From Escherichia phage vB-EcoP-XT73: a stretch of 64,000 nucleotides of DNA. The notes beneath the pieces are model-generated. The model searched no databases and was not told the origin of the DNA. It was given only the letters and a program-made list of their open reading frames with translations. The DNA lies in sequence record OR757436.1, one strand, 5' to 3'. Each line of letters begins with the position of its first letter. Position 1 is the stretch's first letter. Made by a program: the position numbers and the translations under genes. Below are positions 51,618-63,301 of the stretch, one piece after another.

Positions 51618-51954
51618 TCTATCTGATGCTCTAAATCCTTCCTATAAGCCTCCTAGTGAGGCTTTTCTCATTTCTAAGGTGATTGTATTCCTTACCCTCC
51701 TTTAGCTCATTGTGATGCGTCTGAGAGCGTCAAATAGTGCTTTACAAGCCTGTTTTAGTATGTTATTCGCGTGCGCGTTCCTTTACCTACTCCTCTACGA
51801 AAAAGTTTAAAATAATTTGCTTTGCCCTATTGCATTACTCACTGGTTGGCGTATACTTCAATTCATCGGGTACGATGAAAAACATACAAGGCAAGAAATT
51901 GCCCCGCTCTTTAAAAATCAGGCTAGAAAGTGAAAAAATACTTGAAAAAAGTAT

Positions 51955-51982
51955 TTGACAACTGGAAAGCCTAACCTATAAT
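51955..51982 (+). promoter_or_regulatory. sigma70-type promoter (consensus -35 and -10)
   Basis: TTGACA, 16-nt spacer, TATAAT, preceded by A-tracts. Confidence 0.6.
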
Positions 51983-52101
51983 GAGCATAAGTCAGCGATG
52001 ACGTGAAACATCCCCGCTCTTTAAAAACTTATCATCTTGCCCTTTCGCATAGATTCAAGCGAGATAAGGGAAAAGAATAAAAGAAGATGATAAAAAAGAG
52101 G

Positions 52102-52130
52102 TTGCAAACGTGGTTAAGGTAGTTCATACT
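52102..52130 (+). promoter_or_regulatory. sigma70-type promoter candidate
   Basis: TTGCAA, 17-nt spacer, CATACT, A-rich upstream. Confidence 0.45.
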
Positions 52131-52407
52131 AACCACAAGTTAACAAAACAACGTTAACTAGTTCCCAAGTCAACGTATCGCGGGAAAGGTGGCACATAGT
52201 GCAGCGAGTAGTTCGGGAGTAGGCGCCCCGTTAATGAATAAGTAAGCCTTTAATGATGCAGTGATTAGCAGACACTATAAAAGGCTAAAAACGCTCTTTA
52301 ACAATATGGATCATAAGTTTAAGCCTTATCGCTTAATCTTCAATCAAATAAAGCTGGTTGATATATCCTCCCAATAGCGGGAACGACGAAAAAGATTAAA
52401 AAAGCGG

Positions 52408-52436
52408 TTGACAGCAAAAACATCATGGTCCATACT
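52408..52436 (+). promoter_or_regulatory. sigma70-type promoter candidate
   Basis: TTGACA, 17-nt spacer, CATACT, preceded by aaaaaagcgg. Confidence 0.5.
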
Positions 52437-53357
52437 GAGCACTCACTAAGCAAAACACCGCTTCAGTGAAAAGCGAAACAACGGCTAACAGTTGCATGAC
52501 GTGAGAAAGCACGTCGATAGATTTACCGCTCTTTAATAATTTAAACATTCCCCTATATCGGTTAAATATGTTTGATGATAATAACCATCGGAAAACATAC
52601 CAGATAAAACGGTGTAAAACTCCCTAAAATATCAGGGTAAACAGTTTTACATTCCCTTACTGGAAACGCCACCACTGATAAGCGGATTCATTGAGTACAC
52701 GCAACGGCTTAAGCTAATCGCCCACGGTTAAGGGTAGCGGCGGCCATCGCTAACACGGTGCTACAGTGAAAGAAACTAATCAGGGTAGGCAATCCCGACG
52801 AATTAACGCTCAATTGAGAGCGGCGGGGAGTGGTTAAAAAGTGGCAAATTGCTATTTAACAATAAGGTTTAATGCGAACGTTTACGATGTGAACGGCTTG
52901 AGATTCATCACAAGATGAAAGTACATAGCCGGTTTATGTAGTAAACCTGCCGAAAGATATAAAACGCCGGAATACTAGGCGGTTAGTGACTTTTTCGCAA
53001 TAGTATCCCGTAGTGGGCGATGACTAGCGAAAGAGAGCTGATATAAAAGGATAAGCGGGAGCGAAAGCAAAGTAAACGATATTGCCGACGGTTACAGTAA
53101 TGTAATTAAATAGAGTCGGACGCATAGCCTTATTGTGATGATTGATCATCGCTATCAGGTCGGCTTCGTTTATAGCGACTAATTAAAGATACCAGATGAA
53201 ACATCACGGATAAGGGGGCGGCAAGGTTAACTCCTGACAAGACCGCCCCGCTTATCAATAATTACTTAACAATGAGTGATTATCGATAAGTCAATGGCGA
53301 CTTAAAAAGCTCATAGAGAGCGGGGCATAGTGCCCTTACAATTGAAAGGTGAATATC

Positions 53358-54587: not shown

Positions 54588-54808
54588 TATTCAGTAGCAA
54601 TTTTGGCAAGTGTCCTATTTGTGAGAAACATCGCAGCACGGGAAACCATCGCAAATGTAGTAAGATATTACAGCGCCAACGTGATAACAAACATTGGGAT
54701 ACTGTACACACCAACCAACGTAAGGAAGAAGTTAGAAAAATGGCTGTTAAAGCGTCATTTGCTCAATCCACCCGTATTGAACACATTCAAAGGTATCAAG
54801 CATTATGA
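54584..54808 (+). CDS. small basic Cys/His-containing protein
   Basis: FGKCPICEKHRSTGNHRKCSK; an overlapping alternative frame (54603..54815) also exists. Confidence 0.35.
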   Translation: MIFSSNFGKCPICEKHRSTGNHRKCSKILQRQRDNKHWDTVHTNQRKEEVRKMAVKASFAQSTRIEHIQRYQAL

Positions 54809-55014
54809 TCACTAACATCTCAGAATTTAAGAAGGCTCCTTCCCGACTGTTAGGCCGTCGTGTTGTATATCTTTATAGCAACAAAGGTAAATGTACAACC
54901 GGACGAATTACAACGGTGAGTAGTGCTAACAAGAAGCTGTTAAAGTTATGCGTGGCTATGGATGATGGTACAATCCTGCTACGCAGTTGGAAATCGTTTA
55001 GTTTACTTGATTAA
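54805..55014 (+). CDS. hypothetical protein
   Basis: 69-aa ORF. Confidence 0.4.
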   Translation: MITNISEFKKAPSRLLGRRVVYLYSNKGKCTTGRITTVSSANKKLLKLCVAMDDGTILLRSWKSFSLLD

Positions 55015-56511: not shown

Positions 56512-56808
56512 ATGACTTTAGAAGTATATAAATTCCTTTTTGTAAGCTGTTTAACTATCAGCGTTATAGGATTTATTGTTCTCAGAAACAAAGCAGCAAG
56601 CTGGGAGAGAATGTATAGATCTCTAGTCCGAGTGGATGAGATGTATAATGAGAAAGTTAAAGTAACACTCAACGATCTTATTATGCAAGTTGAAGACAGA
56701 AACAAGCGTCTTCAGAATCTCAATCATGAAGTGTTGCGCCTTGCTCGTGCTAATGAAGACTTGCGAGTGGCTATTGCTAAGCAGCAGGAGATTAACAGTG
56801 AAAGTTAA
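56512..56808 (+). CDS. membrane-anchored coiled-coil protein
   Basis: N-terminal hydrophobic segment FLFVSCLTISVIGFIVL followed by a heptad-like region. Confidence 0.45.
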   Translation: MTLEVYKFLFVSCLTISVIGFIVLRNKAASWERMYRSLVRVDEMYNEKVKVTLNDLIMQVEDRNKRLQNLNHEVLRLARANEDLRVAIAKQQEINSES

Positions 56809-57031
56809 TATCAAGCCCGATCATACCACACTTCGTTTAAATAACATGAGGCCGGGTGCCCTGTTTCATTTTAAAGGCTCCCTCTATATCAGAACCGGAT
56901 TAACAACTGACTATCACGTCAATTGTGTTAACGTGGTTTCTGGAGAGCTTATTGTTATCAGCAAAAACGAAGTCTGCCAAGTGCGCAACGATCTCCACAT
57001 AACCAACATAGAGGCTAAAGATGAAGATTGA
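56800..57031 (+). CDS. small protein, paralogue family C
   Basis: GTG start overlapping the upstream stop; ...LRLNNMRPGALFHF...YHVNCVNVVSGELI fits the family pattern. The longer track ORF (56690..57031) overlaps the upstream gene and is taken as an over-extension. Confidence 0.45.
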
Positions 57032-57275
57032 TCTTAACCTTAAAGCTAAAGAATTGCGTGTGGGTGATTTGAAACTTGGCGATGTGTTCCAAGTTAAGGC
57101 AACATGTATTGATTATTACATGATCGTTCAGTTATATACACCACATGTGTCAGAGACTGATCTTCGGAATGGTTGTGTAGTTCTTAATTTAAGAACCAAT
57201 CAAGTAATGAAGCTAGATTCAAACTTACCTGTTTCAGTTATCCATGATGCAGTAATTACCAACAAAGAAGAGTAA
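57021..57275 (+). CDS. small protein, paralogue family C
   Basis: KELRVGDLKLGDVFQV...YYMIV...GCVVLNLRTNQV. Confidence 0.5.
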   Translation: MKIDLNLKAKELRVGDLKLGDVFQVKATCIDYYMIVQLYTPHVSETDLRNGCVVLNLRTNQVMKLDSNLPVSVIHDAVITNKEE

Positions 57276-57575
57276 CATCGACTTATAGCCCTTGTGTTTA
57301 TCAGAGGGCTATGTGAGGGTGTTCCTCATTAACTTATTAATTCAGGCATATGCCACACCGCTAGGGAGAGCTTGCTCGAACATCCGGTGTTAGACTAAAA
57401 CCTGTTAATTTTCGAAAGACTTTCTGATATGTAGGGGTACATATCGGTTTGGGATTCAGGAGACTTCCTAGGGGTAGGGAGTCTTCACCAGTTTGTAGAG
57501 TAGGTGGCTCTATTGTAAGAGTCATCCGCTATATCAACTGGCAATAATGCCTCCACTAACAAAGAGAGATAGGTA

Positions 57576-57719
57576 TGAAAGTATCAACCAAACGTATGAA
57601 CCGCCCTGAACGTATGGATGCAGTAGCTAACGGTGCTCTGAAACTGGAAGGCTTCTGGATTCATGCAATGTCAGCCATCCGTAACAAGCAAGGTAATTGG
57701 ACTTATGCCGGTTAAAACA
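57576..57719 (+). CDS. small basic protein (47 aa)
   Basis: AGAGAGATAGG precedes the ATG; below the ORF-track cutoff. Confidence 0.3.
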
Positions 57720-57914
57720 GCTCATGTGATAGGTATGCGAGAGATCATTCGCATTGCCTTGATGGAACACACTGATCGAAACATGCAACTAACGCAAATC
57801 TCTAAGTGTCTTAATTGCTCAAGAGATATGGCTAAGGAATTAATGTTCGCATTCCTTTATAATGCAGAAGATGGGTTTTTACAAAACCGTCTGCTTGGTT
57901 TAAAACAGAAATAA
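57705..57914 (+). CDS. hypothetical protein
   Basis: Start taken at the internal Met (MPVKTAH...) of the track ORF 57663..57914; a hairpin with T tract follows. Confidence 0.35.
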   Translation: MPVKTAHVIGMREIIRIALMEHTDRNMQLTQISKCLNCSRDMAKELMFAFLYNAEDGFLQNRLLGLKQK

Positions 57915-57999
57915 ATAAATAAAAGGCTGCCCAATCGGGTGGCCTTTGTTGTTTTAATTAAGGGACAGCTCTTACTTAAACTAACAAGAGGAAGCTCAA

Positions 58000-58176
58000 A
58001 TGTCTAAGCAAACAATCAAGAATACACAAGCTGGTTACTCTTATGTTAACTCTCCTTGCTGTGGTGCTCGTGTTAATCTGGTTAAAGAAGAGGTTCGTAT
58101 CGTTCAGCGTGGAGCTACTGTTGTTCGTTCATGCTGTGTCTGTGGTAATGACATCTTTATTAAAGGTAAAGTATGA
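58000..58176 (+). CDS. small Cys-rich protein
   Basis: About 58 aa with SPCCGARV ... CC-x-C; below the ORF-track cutoff. My hand reading of this stretch was off by one base against the ORF track, so the 3' end is approximate. Confidence 0.3.
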   Translation: MSKQTIKNTQAGYSYVNSPCCGARVNLVKEEVRIVQRGATVVRSCCVCGNDIFIKGKV

Positions 58177-58397
58177 TTATCGTCCACTCTGAACCTAAAG
58201 ATAATACTTTTGGTAGTCTACGTAATGGTGATGTATTCTCTCTAGAAATAGACGGGGATACAAAACCTCCTTTATACATGAAGGTTATGCACAGACATGC
58301 TATCTGTATAAAGAATCCTGAAACAAGATTCACCTTTGATAGAACTTGCCCTGTCAAATACTATCAAGCTACCCTAAATGTTAGGAGAGTAGGATGA
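58173..58397 (+). CDS. small protein, paralogue family C
   Basis: DNTFGSLRNGDVFSL...LYMKVMH...HAICIKNPETRF. Confidence 0.5.
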   Translation: MIIVHSEPKDNTFGSLRNGDVFSLEIDGDTKPPLYMKVMHRHAICIKNPETRFTFDRTCPVKYYQATLNVRRVG

Positions 58398-58645
58398 AAA
58401 ACTTCCAAGCTGCACCAATAACTAAAGCGATCGCAGTTAGTGATGTGATGATGACTGTTCCTCTGAACACTCGTTACATTGCAATTGACAAGATGGGTTA
58501 TGTATGGGCTTGGAAGATTAAGCCTAGCTATAACGCATTGTTTGACGAGTTTGTTTGTACTGGTACTTACAGTCCTACATTCTTGGGTTTATTTGGAGAG
58601 TTTGAAGGTCAGTATAAAATCATTACTCTCCCTGCTTGTGTTTGA
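58394..58645 (+). CDS. small protein, paralogue pair D
   Basis: RYIAIDKMGYVWAWKIKP; shares the Y-I/L-A-x-D-x-x-G-x-V-W/Y core with the next ORF. Confidence 0.45.
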   Translation: MKNFQAAPITKAIAVSDVMMTVPLNTRYIAIDKMGYVWAWKIKPSYNALFDEFVCTGTYSPTFLGLFGEFEGQYKIITLPACV

Positions 58646-58654
58646 GGTTCTGGT

Positions 58655-58886
58655 GAAGACTAAAGAGGTTAAATATTTTGGTGAAGTTATTAAAATAGGT
58701 AACTCTATAAGATATTTAGCAACTGATAGCAACGGCGAAGTGTATGGGTTTACTCATAAGCCAGAAATTCGTGGGTATGCTTGGGCACTCCCTTATGGAA
58801 CTCCATTCGAGACTGGAGGGGCTGTTTATCTTAATGATAATGGACCTCTGTTTGGGTGGAAAACATCTCTCGTTGAGGTGGTATAA
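58655..58886 (+). CDS. small protein, paralogue pair D
   Basis: RYLATDSNGEVYGFTHKPEIRGYAWALP; non-ATG start assumed just after the upstream stop. Confidence 0.35.
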
Positions 58887-58888
58887 TT

Positions 58889-59053
58889 ATGTTCAAGTGG
58901 TTTAAATATCTCTTCCATCTCCATGAGTGGGAGACAATCAAAGCGGTTAGTTTAAATACATACAATGAGTTTGGTAAACTGGAAAGTACCGGAACTCGTT
59001 ACATACTTCGATGTAAAACATGTGGTCATATCACTAAGCGGGATATGATCTAA
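58889..59053 (+). CDS. small H-E-W / C-x-x-C protein
   Basis: MFKWFKYLFHLHEWETIK...RCKTCGH; 54 aa. Confidence 0.35.
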   Translation: MFKWFKYLFHLHEWETIKAVSLNTYNEFGKLESTGTRYILRCKTCGHITKRDMI

Positions 59054-59061
59054 GAGGTGTT

Positions 59062-59271
59062 ATGTTCTTTCGTAAGAAAAAGCCCGAAGATTCTGGATGT
59101 AAACATGAGTGGGTGATCACTGAAAACTTACATATCACTCACGCTAAAGACACTCCAGTTGAAGCGAAAGAGTCTCGTGTATCTCGTGTCTGTAAACGCT
59201 GTTTGAAAATAGAACAGCATAAAGTCCCCGGTCATATAGGTCATGATGTGGCCTTGCGTATCTTCAGTTAA
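59062..59271 (+). CDS. small H-E-W / C-x-x-C protein
   Basis: ...CKHEWVITEN...VCKRCLK; paralogue of the 58889 ORF. Confidence 0.4.
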   Translation: MFFRKKKPEDSGCKHEWVITENLHITHAKDTPVEAKESRVSRVCKRCLKIEQHKVPGHIGHDVALRIFS

Positions 59272-59289
59272 ACAAATTCAGAGGTTAAT

Positions 59290-59598
59290 GTGAAACAAAA
59301 GCATTTTATCATCTCAACCTTACTACTAATGACAACCATTGGTATCATCTCTGTTAATAGTGCAGAGATTGGGGTTAAGTATCAGAGTGTTCAGCAATGC
59401 ACTCTTAAAGAGCATAGCTTAACTGGTATCAAAGAATCTCATGGTATGGTAAGAGATGGGCTTCTGTTTGTAGAAACAACTTCTGGTAATCGTGTCATGG
59501 CTACTGATGGCAAAGAAACAAAGTATGCCTACTTCCCTGATACAACAGGCTACTACACTTTTGAAGAGAAGGATTGTAAGAAGTCTTTCTCTTTATAA
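59290..59598 (+). CDS. secreted protein with signal peptide
   Basis: MKQKHFIISTLLLMTTIGIISVNSAE. Confidence 0.5.
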   Translation: MKQKHFIISTLLLMTTIGIISVNSAEIGVKYQSVQQCTLKEHSLTGIKESHGMVRDGLLFVETTSGNRVMATDGKETKYAYFPDTTGYYTFEEKDCKKSFSL

Positions 59599-59607
59599 AA
59601 GAATCAA

Positions 59608-59682
59608 GTCCCTATAGTTAAAAGGATATAACAGATTTCTTCTAAAAATCCATTCTAGGTTCGAGTCCTAGTGGGGACGCCA
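59608..59682 (+). tRNA. tRNA-Arg (anticodon TCT)
   Basis: Hand-folded cloverleaf: acceptor gtcccta/tggggac (one G-U), D stem gtta/taac with GG in the loop, anticodon stem gattt/aaatc with loop cTTCTaa, T stem ctagg/cctag with loop ttcgagt, discriminator G and encoded CCA. Confidence 0.75.
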
Positions 59683-59702
59683 AATCAAATAGGAGGTGTG
59701 TT

Positions 59703-60002
59703 ATGAGTTGGGGTGGTGTAATATCCTTAATCGGTATCTTCATCGTCTGTGTGGCCCTTACAGGCTGTGTACAGAGCCGTCCTGATGGATGGTGTGCAGT
59801 AGCAGTGGATGGTATTTGTGTATCTCGCTGGCATAAAGGTGAGAAGGTTCCTTCTGGTGAGATTGATATGCGCTGGAACGGAGCAACCTGCTCTAATGCT
59901 AACCCTTCTATCAACGAAGAGAAATCTACACCGGATAATGTTGTGATTGATACAGCGTTGTGGTGTGGTGGCTCTGTAACAACAACCGGTAAGGAGTGGT
60001 GA
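59703..60002 (+). CDS. lipoprotein
   Basis: Signal peptide ISLIGIFIVCVALTGC with lipobox L-T-G-C; six further Cys in the mature part. Confidence 0.55.
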   Translation: MSWGGVISLIGIFIVCVALTGCVQSRPDGWCAVAVDGICVSRWHKGEKVPSGEIDMRWNGATCSNANPSINEEKSTPDNVVIDTALWCGGSVTTTGKEW

Positions 60003-60003
60003 T

Positions 60004-60201
60004 ATGAATTATACATCTACAAAGGTGTTAATTGATTCGATTAATAGCTCCTCAGAAGCTGTACAGGAGCGTTTAATACAAGATGTTAGCAATGACATTA
60101 AGTTCTTTGTTAAACGCCGCCTGTTAGGTTCTAAGGCTTATTACAGAGCTAAAGCAGAGTTAACTAAGAGAGTGTTTCTCTTACATGGCTTGGTATATTA
60201 A
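60004..60201 (+). CDS. hypothetical protein
   Basis: 65-aa ORF. Confidence 0.4.
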   Translation: MNYTSTKVLIDSINSSSEAVQERLIQDVSNDIKFFVKRRLLGSKAYYRAKAELTKRVFLLHGLVY

Positions 60202-60210
60202 GGAACTTAT

Positions 60211-60432
60211 ATGAAATTAGATTCTAAACAATCCCTTAAAACTGTTGAACTATCCACACTGCCAAACGGAAGTATTTTTGGTCATGATAAACACTTCTGG
60301 ATTAAAACAGACTACTTGAACGATGGGTATATCACCTGTGTCAATCTTTGGAATGGCTCAGTGGATGGCTATCGCCCTAGTGCAAAAGTAGTCCCTCAGC
60401 CTGATGCAAAGGCTATAGGTTTAGTTTATTAA
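60211..60432 (+). CDS. small protein, paralogue family C
   Basis: KTVELSTLPNGSIFGH...FWIKTDY...GYITCVNLWNGSV. Confidence 0.5.
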   Translation: MKLDSKQSLKTVELSTLPNGSIFGHDKHFWIKTDYLNDGYITCVNLWNGSVDGYRPSAKVVPQPDAKAIGLVY

Positions 60433-60441
60433 GGAGTTTAT

Positions 60442-60615
60442 ATGAGCTGTTTTGGTGGTGGTGAAATAGATGACGATTATGACATGGAATCCAACGGTAC
60501 ATGTCCTGATTGTGGATGTGAGACGTGGGATGGTGTGTCAGTATACCCTGCCTGTAGTTACTCACCAGTGATCTGTAAAACATGTGGTGATCAGCCATGT
60601 GACCAATCTTGTTAA
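60442..60615 (+). CDS. small Cys-rich protein
   Basis: 57 aa with CPDCGCE ... CKTCGDQPC; below the ORF-track cutoff. Confidence 0.3.
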   Translation: MSCFGGGEIDDDYDMESNGTCPDCGCETWDGVSVYPACSYSPVICKTCGDQPCDQSC

Positions 60616-60624
60616 GAGGTTAAT

Positions 60625-60882
60625 ATGGACGGAGAAGTGGTTTCATATATAGCCATGACTTACTTGGTAGGTTGGTGGGTTGCAGTGTTGGTGGTGACGT
60701 GGTGCTTCAAGAGAGGGAAGTTTAAAACTTTCCTACATACTCCTTGGGGGAACCCTGACGAAATTGCAATTTGGGTTGTGATCTTCTTCTGGCCTGTTAT
60801 CTTATTATTCTTTATCATCTTCCCAATCCTACTACTATTTGACACTGTATTATGTAGGCTTACTAATTTTATAGTAAAGTAA
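60625..60882 (+). CDS. small integral membrane protein
   Basis: Two or three hydrophobic segments (LVGWWVAVLVVTW ... IAIWVVIFFWPVILLFFIIFPILLLF). Confidence 0.5.
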   Translation: MDGEVVSYIAMTYLVGWWVAVLVVTWCFKRGKFKTFLHTPWGNPDEIAIWVVIFFWPVILLFFIIFPILLLFDTVLCRLTNFIVK

Positions 60883-61530
60883 TATCGTGAAGGATTCTTA
60901 CGAGAGTCCTTTGAGATAGGACTTCAGATCTCCTATCAAACTAACATTCATGTAACTAGCCCATAAGGGCGTTACCCTTTAATAACCCAGCCCACTAAGG
61001 GGGCGGGAGTTTAGTGCTGGATTAGCATAACGCTTATTCCCACAAAGGCAACCGATTGTTAGATCTTACATGCAATATTAATTAATAGGATAAGGGAGGA
61101 TTCGTCCCCTCCCCCTATTTATAAATTATCAGGAGGGTGCATTAGCTGATTAGCTGTAGAAGGGAGGCTGATATCTACAGCGTGGCCCAGAGTTAGTGTA
61201 CTCTCCTGATGAGTAGATACCTCATCACGGTAAGCTGTGGAATAATCTTTACAGAAGTTACTTAAAGTAGCCTGTACGGCCCTCAGCAAAGAGTCCGGAC
61301 GATATCTGAGTGACTTTAAAAACAGATGGAGCCAGGTGGAATCCCTGGCAATCAATTACAGGTATAGCTTATGAGGCTAATTAATGCAGAGCCTATGGTA
61401 AAGCAGTCGCCCGTGGTCAAATGACCGTATGCCCATTGGGTGCATCCCTTTGGTGATGGCTAGGGAGTCCGAGCGTAGGTCCGAACCCTACACCTGTAAC
61501 CAAATCAAACAATATCTAATTGGAGGATGT

Positions 61531-61842
61531 ATGAAAGCTCGAAGAACTATATGGACTCCGATTCAGATTGAAAATCTTCGGAGACTAATCAAAGAGTACT
61601 CTGTTCAAGAGGTTGCTCAGATTATGAATGTAACGGAGAATGCAGTTAATACAGCTTGCACTAAGTTTGGTATATCAAGAGCTGCAATCCGAGTCAAGTG
61701 GTCTAAAGAAGAAGACCAGTTCCTTATCCGTAATGCTGGGTTCATGTCTATTCAGAGAATGGCTGACATGCTCGGTAGAAGCTATGCTGCTGTACAGAAC
61801 AGGGCATGTATGCACCTTAACATTAGCCTTAAACTTAAATAG
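61531..61842 (+). CDS. DNA-binding protein candidate with two helix-turn-helix-like repeats
   Basis: Start at the internal ATG after GGAGG; two similar segments (SVQEVAQIMNVTENAVNTACTKFGIS and SIQRMADMLGRSYAAVQNRACMHLNIS). Confidence 0.4.
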   Translation: MKARRTIWTPIQIENLRRLIKEYSVQEVAQIMNVTENAVNTACTKFGISRAAIRVKWSKEEDQFLIRNAGFMSIQRMADMLGRSYAAVQNRACMHLNISLKLK

Positions 61843-61850
61843 GAATCAAT

Positions 61851-62105
61851 ATGAAAGTTAACGAGTTAAATAGAACTACCAAGACTGTGAAACTCCATAC
61901 TCTGAAGAAGGGTGATACATTCCGTTTAGAGGAGAATGGACCAATCCACATGGTCTGCACTGCGGCATCTACTAATTGGGTGGAAGTTGCACGAGATCGA
62001 GTAGTGTGTGTCAGGCTGGAAGATGGTAATCTGAGTGGTCCGGTCGAGAGGATTCCTGTTATCCCTGTTAAAGTTGAAGCTAACGTTATTAAGGGTTCTA
62101 AATGA
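61851..62105 (+). CDS. small protein, paralogue family C
   Basis: KTVKLHTLKKGDTFRL...IHMVCTA...RVVCVRLEDGNLSG. Confidence 0.5.
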   Translation: MKVNELNRTTKTVKLHTLKKGDTFRLEENGPIHMVCTAASTNWVEVARDRVVCVRLEDGNLSGPVERIPVIPVKVEANVIKGSK

Positions 62106-62347
62106 AGATCATCCCAAAGATTAAAGATAACACTGTTTCATTGGCTACAATTATTCCCGGAAACCCTTTCGTAGTTCAAAGAGGAACAGCATCCCCTCAG
62201 TATTACATCCGTGTCAATAATGTGTCCAACAAAATCTCTGTCGAAGAAGGTTGGATTACTATAGTCAATCTTCTTACTGGTGTATTAGGTGTTATGAAAA
62301 GTGATGCCCCAGTTGAAGTAATTCGTATGTCAGTGGTTCAGGAGTAG
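62102..62347 (+). CDS. small protein, paralogue family C
   Basis: NTVSLATIIPGNPFVV...QYYIRV...GWITIVNLLTGVLG. Confidence 0.5.
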   Translation: MKIIPKIKDNTVSLATIIPGNPFVVQRGTASPQYYIRVNNVSNKISVEEGWITIVNLLTGVLGVMKSDAPVEVIRMSVVQE

Positions 62348-62352
62348 TGTAG

Positions 62353-62595
62353 ATGAGCACAATACATATCAAGGTCCATCACAAAGAAGAAAAGAAACTC
62401 TTTGTTAAAGATCTATCAATCGCTGATATCTTCACTTTAAAAGAAGATGATAATCAGGTCATCTATTTGATGATGCCTGTGACTGGAGGGTATCGAAGGG
62501 CTGTTTGTTTGGGTACAGGTGTACCTCGTCCTGTTGCTGATACTCTTGAAGTTGGTGAGAAGTTTAGTAAGGCTGAAATCATCTTAACTCCATAG
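62353..62595 (+). CDS. small protein, paralogue family C
   Basis: KKLFVKDLSIADIFTL...VIYLMMP...RRAVCLGTGVPR. Confidence 0.5.
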   Translation: MSTIHIKVHHKEEKKLFVKDLSIADIFTLKEDDNQVIYLMMPVTGGYRRAVCLGTGVPRPVADTLEVGEKFSKAEIILTP

Positions 62596-62603
62596 GAAAA
62601 CAA

Positions 62604-62720
62604 ATGAGACGTAAAGCATATTCTTATGACGATATGATTAACCAGAAAGGCTTCGGTCAACGACAGCCTGACGGTTCAATTATCTGGTTCGTAAACGGGC
62701 AGAAAAAGGTAGCTAAATAA
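62604..62720 (+). CDS. small basic protein (38 aa)
   Basis: MRRKAYSYDDMINQKGFGQRQPDGSIIWFVNGQKKVAK; below the ORF-track cutoff. Confidence 0.25.
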   Translation: MRRKAYSYDDMINQKGFGQRQPDGSIIWFVNGQKKVAK

Positions 62721-62825
62721 GCCTTCTTCTCTCCTCCTTTTAGTACTATGACGCCTCTCTGTGGGCGGACCAATTTGCGTAGGGAATTCCCTCTACGCAG
62801 CCATAATTTTTAAGGAATTTCCCCT

Positions 62826-63059
62826 ATGTCTAAAGTAAGCGCAATTGATGCAATCCGTCAACCGTTCCAGTTCCAATCCAAATCAACCCAAACCTTCAGC
62901 GAGCCTAAGCAAATTCGCTTGGGTGGCACAGAGAAGACTGTATTTGATCTGGCTAAAAACAAGAGCGTTACTGTAGTTGATGGTGGCACTCTGGTTAACG
63001 TTTCCCATCGTATCCGCACTGGCAAAACTGCCAAAGATCGTGCTAAGAAAGGTGAATAA
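62826..63059 (+). CDS. hypothetical protein
   Basis: 77-aa ORF with upstream AAGGAA. Confidence 0.45.
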   Translation: MSKVSAIDAIRQPFQFQSKSTQTFSEPKQIRLGGTEKTVFDLAKNKSVTVVDGGTLVNVSHRIRTGKTAKDRAKKGE

Positions 63060-63301
63060 TGAAAATAGGGCAACCAGCTAAGGATGTTCTAGCGAAGATT
63101 AGTGATATCTCTATTGGGGAGGTTTTCTCAGCAGAGCACTTTTCAAGTTACTACATGAAAATCCCTGACACTAAAGTAGAGGGTTGCATCACCCCCGCCA
63201 ACGCAGTTAACCTGAACACAGGGCATTTGTCTGCATTCAAACCTGATTCACAGGTTACTGAAATCAAAGATGCCTACCTTGCCTTTGGTGGGGATAAATA
63301 G
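63059..63301 (+). CDS. small protein, paralogue family C
   Basis: KISDISIGEVFSA...SYYMKI...GCITPANAVNLNTGHL. Confidence 0.5.
   Translation: MKIGQPAKDVLAKISDISIGEVFSAEHFSSYYMKIPDTKVEGCITPANAVNLNTGHLSAFKPDSQVTEIKDAYLAFGGDK

What the first reader, a model, noticed from the sequence alone, without database searches (positions are those of the whole stretch)
56800..63301. Paralogue family C: at least eight small (about 75-85 aa) related proteins in the early-type block
ORFs at 56800, 57021, 58173, 60211, 61851, 62102, 62353 and 63059 share a three-part pattern: L-x-x-L-x-x-G-D/N-x-F near the N-terminus, a central Y-Y/M-K/I-V, and a C-terminal V-C-V-N-L-x-T-G-like segment. This is the largest expanded family in the window, and three members are directly adjacent.
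Basis: seen in the sequence. Interest (0 to 1): 0.65.

Follow-up and report, generated by a model that had tools for sequence, protein, structure and literature searches.

The report
Eight-copy small beta-barrel phage protein family
A phiEco32-like E. coli phage carries eight old, diverged copies of a roughly 75-residue early protein that is predicted to fold as an SH3-like beta-barrel; the family is real, common in phages (N4 gp21 is a member), has no name in any curated domain library, and its function is unknown.

Summary
The window is a Kuravirus (phiEco32-like) E. coli podophage, 96.8% identical to vB-EcoP-XT18. All eight ORFs are real genes: each has an SD-like site, and dN/dS against orthologues is 0.04-0.31. 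They are truly homologous. In leave-one-out HMM tests the omitted member is always the best of 301 window ORFs. An HMM built only from foreign sequences ranks the eight as the top 8 of 368 ORFs (E 8e-18 to 3e-6; the next is 0.13). No ninth copy exists in the window. A 219-nt deletion removed the copy that relatives carry after C2.

My best reading, which is inferred and not shown, is a diversified set of early small binding proteins aimed at host or defence targets. The conserved residues build the barrel and the loops vary. I rate it moderately interesting: a real, large, unnamed family with no demonstrated mechanism.

The parts
56798..57031 (+). C1, 77 aa, GTG start; orthologue of phiEco32 phi32_115; PHROG 16423
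   Evidence: dN/dS is 0.11-0.21. Its start overlaps the stop of the upstream ORF, and its stop overlaps the start of C2.
57021..57275 (+). C2, 84 aa; orthologue of phi32_114; PHROG 9955. Its last two codons come from the deleted neighbouring paralogue.
   Evidence: (AF2 model, pLDDT 74.7). dN/dS is 0.13-0.25.
57267..57268 (+). Junction of a 219-nt deletion that removed the ninth paralogue (phi32_113 type), which is present in XT18, phiEco32, KBNP1711 and ShigP1
   Evidence: In the alignment with XT18, window C2 ends ...ITNKEE* where relatives end ...ITNKGK* and then carry a separate 72-aa gene.
58173..58397 (+). C3, 74 aa; orthologue of phi32_109; PHROG 10911. It is the most divergent member in motif 3.
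   Evidence: leave-one-out E 8e-4; 88% probability to C5; E 4.5e-9; dN/dS 0.06-0.08.
60211..60432 (+). C4, 73 aa; orthologue of phi32_104; PHROG 6570. It is the hub of the profile-profile network.
   Evidence: dN/dS is 0.04-0.10.
61851..62105 (+). C5, 84 aa; PHROG 7832. First gene of the adjacent trio.
   Evidence: dN/dS is 0.04.
62102..62347 (+). C6, 81 aa; orthologue of phi32_96; PHROG 7431
   Evidence: dN/dS is 0.07-0.31. There are two allele classes.
62353..62595 (+). C7, 80 aa; orthologue of phi32_95; PHROG 12612
   Evidence: weakest leave-one-out, E 3e-3; 79% probability to C4; E 2.8e-6. dN/dS is 0.09-0.23.
63059..63301 (+). C8, 80 aa; PHROG 12612. It is absent from phiEco32 and ShigP1.
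   Evidence: (AF2 model, pLDDT 84.3, pTM 0.71). dN/dS is 0.13.

Best explanation
The eight genes are old, diverged paralogues (17-29% identity) of one large family of stand-alone phage proteins about 75 residues long, predicted to fold as SH3-like small beta-barrels. In this Kuravirus they lie in the early-class block, which host sigma-70 RNA polymerase transcribes, and they are arranged in short, translationally coupled operons. The signature is M-K-I at the N-terminus, then [FL]-x-D-L-x-x-G-D-V-F, Y-M-K, N-[AC]-V-N-L-x-[TN]-G, and V-x-P-V...A-x-L. This signature supplies the hydrophobic core and the tight turns of the barrel. The segments between the motifs vary in length and sequence, especially the loop between Y-M-K and N-A-V-N-L and the stretch after T-G. 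I infer that each paralogue is a small cytoplasmic binding module made early in infection. Each would use its variable loops to bind a different host component or host defence component, or possibly a phage one, so that the set acts as a battery of accessory host-takeover or counter-defence factors. Shown here: homology, purifying selection, the predicted fold, phage-wide distribution, variation in copy number, and location in the early block. Inferred: early expression in this particular phage, binding as the activity, and the nature of the targets.
Against: No member has any experimental data, and none has a solved structure. The fold matches are generic and say nothing about the ligand. The eight copies show no consistent charge bias (pI 5.5-9.4). 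C3 and C4 are 93-99% conserved across genera, which suits a fixed housekeeping-type partner better than an arms race. The elevated loop pN/pS rests on 4-5 sequences and is not significant. Early expression is taken from phiEco32 literature that I could cite only second-hand, because the primary papers were not held. No informative partner domains were found in the fusion proteins.
Confidence: 0.45

Rival explanations
1. The proteins modulate transcription or translation. Like KOW or Tudor-like barrels (NusG/Spt5 KOW, the RNAP-interacting domains of UvrD, Mfd and CarD, the EF-P N-domain), they would dock on host RNA polymerase or the ribosome to retune them for the phage, which relies on host core RNAP throughout infection.
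Confidence: 0.15
2. The proteins are dedicated counter-defence proteins, for example inhibitors of restriction or abortive-infection systems, and the paralogues are diversified against different host immune proteins.
For: The genes sit in the early block. Paralogues are gained and lost between close relatives, alleles are mosaic, and a clean deletion removed one copy here. Gordonclarkvirinae are unusually resistant to RM systems without a known inhibitor. Each subfamily is narrowly lineage-specific; close homologues of N4 gp21 occur only in 16 N4-type records.
Against: Six of the copies are found in all five Kuravirus-group genomes examined, and C3 and C4 are nearly invariant. That pattern is unusual for anti-defence genes. 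The BASEL authors themselves favour DNA modification as the cause of RM resistance. No sequence or fold match to any characterised anti-defence protein was found.
Confidence: 0.2
3. The proteins are relatives of bacterial SH3b (SH3_3) cell-wall-binding domains and act on the envelope.
For: The family profile weakly hits a 1,008-aa protein made of SH3b repeats plus NlpC/P60 (P0165, summed E 4e-8), and the G-D-x-F...Y-x-K segment aligns with the SH3b core. The predicted fold class is the same.
Against: Each repeat scores 11.5 bits or less and covers only half of the domain. hhalign probability is 23% over 30 columns. The Pfam SH3 models do not match. The proteins have hydrophilic N-termini without signal peptides, are stand-alone, and lie in the early block rather than with the lysis genes.
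Confidence: 0.04
4. The resemblance is a chance or compositional artefact among unrelated short ORFs, or some of the ORFs are not genes.
For: Pairwise E-values are mostly 0.02-1. C3 and C7 are weak in the leave-one-out test (E 8e-4 and 3e-3).
Against: The leave-one-out test ranks the omitted member first every time. The independent foreign HMM separates the eight from all other ORFs by more than four orders of magnitude. PHROG cross-hits reach E 1e-9. Purifying selection acts on all eight, and all have SD-like sites.
Confidence: 0.01

Closest known systems
PHROGs 7832, 6570, 7431, 8365, 9955, 12612, 16423, 10911 and 34455 (all labelled 'unknown function')
   Same: Each window protein is a full-length member of one of these groups (E 1e-26 to 1e-42) and cross-hits several of the others. 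Of 72 distant relatives, 68 hit phrog_7832 and 63 hit phrog_6570.
   Different: PHROGs treats them as separate families with no annotation. The evidence here joins them into one superfamily with one predicted fold.
Escherichia phage N4 gp21 (YP_950499, 74 aa, function unknown)
   Same: It matches the family HMM end to end (E 4.6e-17) and the C8 model in BFVD. It has the same length and the same motifs.
   Different: N4 has a single copy in the first 30 kb that I scanned, and it lies among genes downstream of the N4 RNAP II genes rather than in a multi-copy early block. No function has been reported.
SH3-like small beta-barrel folds (ribosomal L2 C-domain, KOW, Tudor, FeoA, DtxR SH3-like domain, eIF5A/EF-P N-domain)
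   Same: The predicted topology is 5-6 short strands forming a barrel. These are the best structural matches.
phiEco32 gp79 (small RNAP-binding regulator of the same phage group)
   Same: It is a small regulatory protein of the same phage group that acts on a host enzyme.
   Different: gp79 is built from alpha-helices. Its solved structure is in the PDB, yet the family profile does not hit it. It is not a member.
Bacterial SH3b / SH3_3 domains
   Same: They share the fold class and a local G-x-x-F...[WY]-Y-x-[IK] motif.
   Different: hhalign probability is only 23%. There is no Pfam match, no secretion signal and no catalytic partner.

Membership tests
Family C superfamily (the merged PHROG groups; includes N4 gp21) | A full-length match to a family HMM built without the sequence under test | tested here: met
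   Leave-one-out E ranges from 3e-3 to 4e-9, and the omitted member ranks first of 301 ORFs each time. The HMM built only from foreign sequences gives E 7.6e-18 to 2.8e-6 for all eight.
Family C superfamily (the merged PHROG groups; includes N4 gp21) | A single-domain protein of about 70-85 aa with the signature [FL]-x-x-L-x-x-G-[DE]-x-F / Y-[MI]-[KR] / V-N-L-x-[TN]-G / V-x-P-V | tested here: met
   C7 (G to A), C1 (G-A-L-F) and C3 (weak third motif) deviate at single positions.
SH3-like small beta-barrel fold | A barrel of five or six antiparallel strands, recovered in fold searches | tested here: met
Pfam SH3_3 / SH3b, KOW and Tudor families | A sequence match to the Pfam model above the gathering score | tested here: not met
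   No Pfam family at E<=1 for the eight proteins, and none at E<=0.01 for 72 relatives. hhalign against SH3b repeats gives 23% probability.
phiEco32 gp79-type RNAP regulators | Helical fold with an N-terminal helix that binds RNAP or gp36; sequence similarity to gp79 | tested here: not met
   gp79 is described as helical. The family models are all-beta. PDB profile searches do not recover gp79 chains.
Known defence-system proteins (PADLOC) and curated NCBIfam families | An HMM match | tested here: not met
   There are no meaningful hits for the 78 family members: isolated single-member hits at E>=0.0018 in NCBIfam and E 0.0052 in PADLOC.
Early (host sigma-70-dependent) gene class of phiEco32-like phages | Transcribed from sigma-70 promoters before the gp36-dependent middle and late genes | not testable with these tools
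   Position and synteny agree: these are orthologues of phi32_95-115, downstream of a spacer with consensus sigma-70 promoters as described for SU10 and phiEco32. No expression data exist for this phage.

The most novel reading that the evidence does not exclude
The family is a general-purpose, phage-wide scaffold for evolving small inhibitors: a minimal SH3-like barrel whose loops are re-tailored against different host proteins, much as other biological systems reuse repeat or immunoglobulin scaffolds. On this reading Kuraviruses carry a standing battery of 8-12 such inhibitors, which would contribute to their unusually broad resistance to host restriction and defence systems. N4 gp21 would be a tractable single-copy entry point for working out the mechanism.
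Probability: 0.15. Interest if true: 0.75.

Novelty: new member of a known kind. Interest (0 to 1): 0.42.

Why it matters
Small early phage genes are the largest pool of proteins with unknown function, and they are where host-takeover and anti-defence factors are usually found. This analysis merges at least nine PHROG groups of unknown function, N4 gp21, and about 1,900 sequence clusters into one family with one predicted fold. It defines the family signature and shows repeated expansion: 1-2 copies in most contigs, 4 in phage 7-11, and 8-9 in Kuraviruses. That gives a concrete target for a curated domain entry. It also offers a small set of experiments that would annotate thousands of genes at once, such as characterising N4 gp21 or deleting the copies in a BASEL-collection Kuravirus. 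In itself this is not a new kind of system, and no mechanism is demonstrated.

Tried and rejected
1. Pfam, NCBIfam and PADLOC scans of the eight proteins and of 72-78 relatives found nothing.
2. PDB sequence-profile searches with two profiles returned only noise, such as CopZ and rotavirus VP4 at E>=0.14.
3. Fold searches gave only generic SH3-like barrels. The afdb50 library was unavailable.
4. I considered phiEco32 gp79 as a possible characterised member and rejected it, because it is helical and gives no profile hit.
5. The SH3b relationship is weak and partial, so I leave it as inconclusive.
6. tblastn of a distant member and of the family consensus against 50,697 phage records found nothing; tblastn is too insensitive at 25-30% identity over 75 aa.
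7. The word-indexed protein searches recovered only Kuravirus orthologues or unnamed metagenomic proteins.
8. The search for related loci could not use the divergent alignment.
9. Rfam found only the tRNA in the block.
10. Literature searches on Kuravirus early genes, N4 gp21 and anti-defence found no description of this family. The primary phiEco32 papers were not held.
11. Contexts of the fusion proteins were on contigs too short to be informative.
12. Charge analysis gave no hint of DNA mimicry or nucleic-acid binding.
Full report
IDENTITY OF THE WINDOW. Region 56500-63600 matches 172 phage records. The best is Escherichia phage vB-EcoP-XT18 (96.8% identity over 90% of the query), followed by NJ01, KBNP1711 and other phiEco32-like podophages of the Gordonclarkvirinae. 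GC skew and ORF orientation split the window into three parts: + strand genes at 1-20 kb, - strand genes at 20-48 kb, and a + strand block of small genes from about 49.5 kb to the end. By synteny with phiEco32 (genes phi32_95 to phi32_115), the finding lies in what the literature calls the early class. That class is host sigma-70-dependent, mostly hypothetical, the most variable part of these genomes, and presumed to serve host takeover. An ORF-free spacer at about 51.7-53.35 kb carries a perfect TTGACA-16-TATAAT promoter at 51955-51982 and two more good matches. [quoted passage not shown] Terminator-like hairpins on the + strand at 57922, 61094 and 62775 suggest several transcription units.

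CHECKING THE OBSERVATION. All eight ORFs exist. C1 starts at a GTG at 56798, which agrees with the XT18 annotation, not at 56800. All eight have an SD-like site. Several are translationally coupled: C1 and C2 overlap by 11 nt, C5 and C6 overlap by 4 nt, and the starts of C1 and C3 overlap the stops of the upstream ORFs. Pairwise identity is only 17-29%, and pairwise phmmer E-values are weak. Even so, the best non-self hits of each protein among 301 window ORFs are nearly always other members. Four independent tests settle the question of homology.
- Leave-one-out HMMs rank the omitted member first every time, with E from 3e-3 (C7) to 4e-9 (C2).
- Each protein belongs to its own PHROG but cross-hits the PHROGs of its paralogues, down to E 2e-9.
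- hhalign of the orthologue-group profiles links every member through C4 and C5: C4-C1 96%, C4-C5 98%, C4-C6 96%, C4-C8 87%, C4-C7 79%, C5-C3 88%, C5-C2 86%.
- An HMM built from 20 foreign proteins, none with a pairwise E below 1e-3 to any window copy, puts the eight at the top of 368 ORFs with E 7.6e-18 to 2.8e-6. The next ORF scores 0.13.
No other window ORF of 40 aa or more belongs to the family. Against orthologues in phiEco32, KBNP1711 and ShigP1, dN/dS is 0.04-0.31 for all eight. They are therefore expressed, constrained genes.

THE FAMILY IS MUCH LARGER THAN THE WINDOW. The word-indexed search returned only Kuravirus orthologues. The exhaustive profile search of 1.84 billion cluster representatives returned 1,904 proteins at E<=1e-3. 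Of the 150 listed, nearly all are full-length, single-domain proteins of 69-90 aa with the same signature. There are also two-domain fusions of 126-156 aa and proteins with 3-5 repeats (P0154 at 387 aa, P0259 at 515 aa, P0244 at 834 aa). N4 gp21 matches end to end (E 4.6e-17), and its close homologues occur only in 16 N4-type records. Salmonella phage 7-11 has four copies in its early region. A metagenomic contig (L006) has three adjacent genes carrying four domains. Other contigs carry one or two copies among small phage-type ORFs. Among Kuravirus-group genomes the census is: window 8; XT18 9, with C5 split into two ORFs; phiEco32 9; KBNP1711 9, including a tandem C4 duplicate and no C5; ShigP1 9. 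Across these genomes at least 12 subfamilies can be told apart. C1, C2, C3, C4, C6 and C7 are present in all five. The window has lost the phi32_113-type copy through a clean 219-nt deletion. The deletion fuses ...ITNK of C2 to the last two codons of the lost gene, so C2 ends NKEE* here and NKGK* in relatives. The window's C6 and C7 are 88-95% identical to those of KBNP1711, which belongs to a different genus, but only 54-69% identical to those of phiEco32 and ShigP1. So there are allele classes that move by recombination.

WHAT IT IS NOT. There is no match in Pfam, NCBIfam or PADLOC, either for the eight proteins or for 72-78 relatives. There is no sequence relative in the PDB. gp79, the well-studied small RNAP regulator of phiEco32, is helical and unrelated. 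The profile weakly touches SH3b repeats in an NlpC/P60 protein (P0165), but each repeat scores 11.5 bits or less over half the domain, and hhalign gives 23% probability. I therefore treat the SH3b link as fold-level only. The proteins have hydrophilic N-termini and no consistent charge bias: pI is 5.5-9.4 in the window, and the median for relatives is 5.3. I found no paper that describes the family or gives N4 gp21 a function.

HOW IT MOST LIKELY WORKS. Shown: this is an old, selected, phage-wide family of stand-alone predicted SH3-like barrels. It sits in the early block here, and copies are gained, lost, duplicated and exchanged between close relatives. Inferred: the proteins are small cytoplasmic binding modules made at the start of infection. 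The conserved residues maintain the scaffold, and the variable loops give each paralogue its own partner. The multi-repeat fusions found elsewhere fit a binding module. The early position, the polymorphism and the narrow lineage range of each subfamily fit host-takeover or counter-defence roles. BASEL reports that Gordonclarkvirinae are strongly resistant to RM systems with no known inhibitor. That makes counter-defence attractive but proves nothing, and the near-invariance of C3 and C4 points instead to stable targets for at least some copies. RNAP or the ribosome are plausible specific targets, given the KOW/Tudor-like fold and this group's dependence on host RNAP. The structural evidence for that is generic. 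I put about 0.95 on the family and fold statement and about 0.35-0.45 on the binding-battery mechanism. Within that mechanism I give roughly 0.2 to counter-defence and 0.15 to transcription or translation targets.

NOVELTY AND SCORE. The genes are annotated as 'hypothetical' in more than 170 genomes, and the family is scattered over at least nine PHROGs of unknown function. New here are the unification into one family, the signature, the fold prediction, the membership of N4 gp21, and the pattern of expansion. This is a new, unnamed family of a known fold and a known genomic kind (expanded small early phage genes), not a new kind of system. Interest is 0.42: worth a domain-family entry and a few targeted experiments, but not surprising to a phage specialist.

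Noticed in passing
window 57276-57574: A non-coding spacer of about 300 nt after C2 is about 97% identical to XT18. It contains a hairpin (TAGCCCT...AGGGCTA) and has no + strand ORF. It could be a terminator or an unannotated small RNA. Rfam finds nothing there.
   Followed up: partly
window 57267/57268 (compare L001:3780-3998): A clean 219-nt deletion removed the ninth paralogue (phi32_113 type) and rewrote the last two codons of C2, so C2 ends NKEE* instead of NKGK*.
   Followed up: yes
window 51700-53350: An ORF-free spacer carries a perfect sigma-70 consensus promoter at 51955-51982 (+) and further good matches at 52408 and 53234. It probably corresponds to the early-promoter cluster described for SU10 and phiEco32. 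phiEco32 has an unannotated gap of about 1.9 kb at the same place.
   Followed up: partly
window 58000-58176, 58889-59053, 59062-59271, 60442-60615: Four small ORFs rich in CxxC pairs, which look like zinc ribbons, are interspersed with the family C genes. They may form a second small-protein family in the block.
   Followed up: no
window 59290-60002: tRNA-Arg(TCT) at 59608-59682 sits between two lipoprotein-like ORFs (59290-59598 and 59703-60002) in the middle of the early block. The arrangement is conserved in phiEco32 and ShigP1.
   Followed up: no
window 62102-62595 vs L004, L008, L009: The alleles are mosaic. The window's C6 and C7 are 88-95% identical to KBNP1711 (genus Nieuwekanaalvirus) but only 54-69% identical to phiEco32 and ShigP1 (genus Kuravirus). 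This implies recombinational exchange of allele classes across genera.
   Followed up: partly
L001:8305-8561 (XT18): The C5 orthologue in XT18 is split into two overlapping ORFs. This is either a frameshift or a sequencing error.
   Followed up: no
L008:10383-10835 (KBNP1711): KBNP1711 carries two adjacent C4-type genes, a recent tandem duplicate, and has no C5.
   Followed up: partly
L005:646-3315 (metagenomic contig): A 387-aa protein made of five family C repeats (P0154) lies next to a WGR-PARP domain gene. The contig is too short (3.4 kb) to interpret.
   Followed up: no
window 54805-55014: A 69-aa ORF (MITNISEFKK...GRRVVYLYSNKG...) looks like another small beta-rich protein, but it does not match the family C HMM.
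   Followed up: partly
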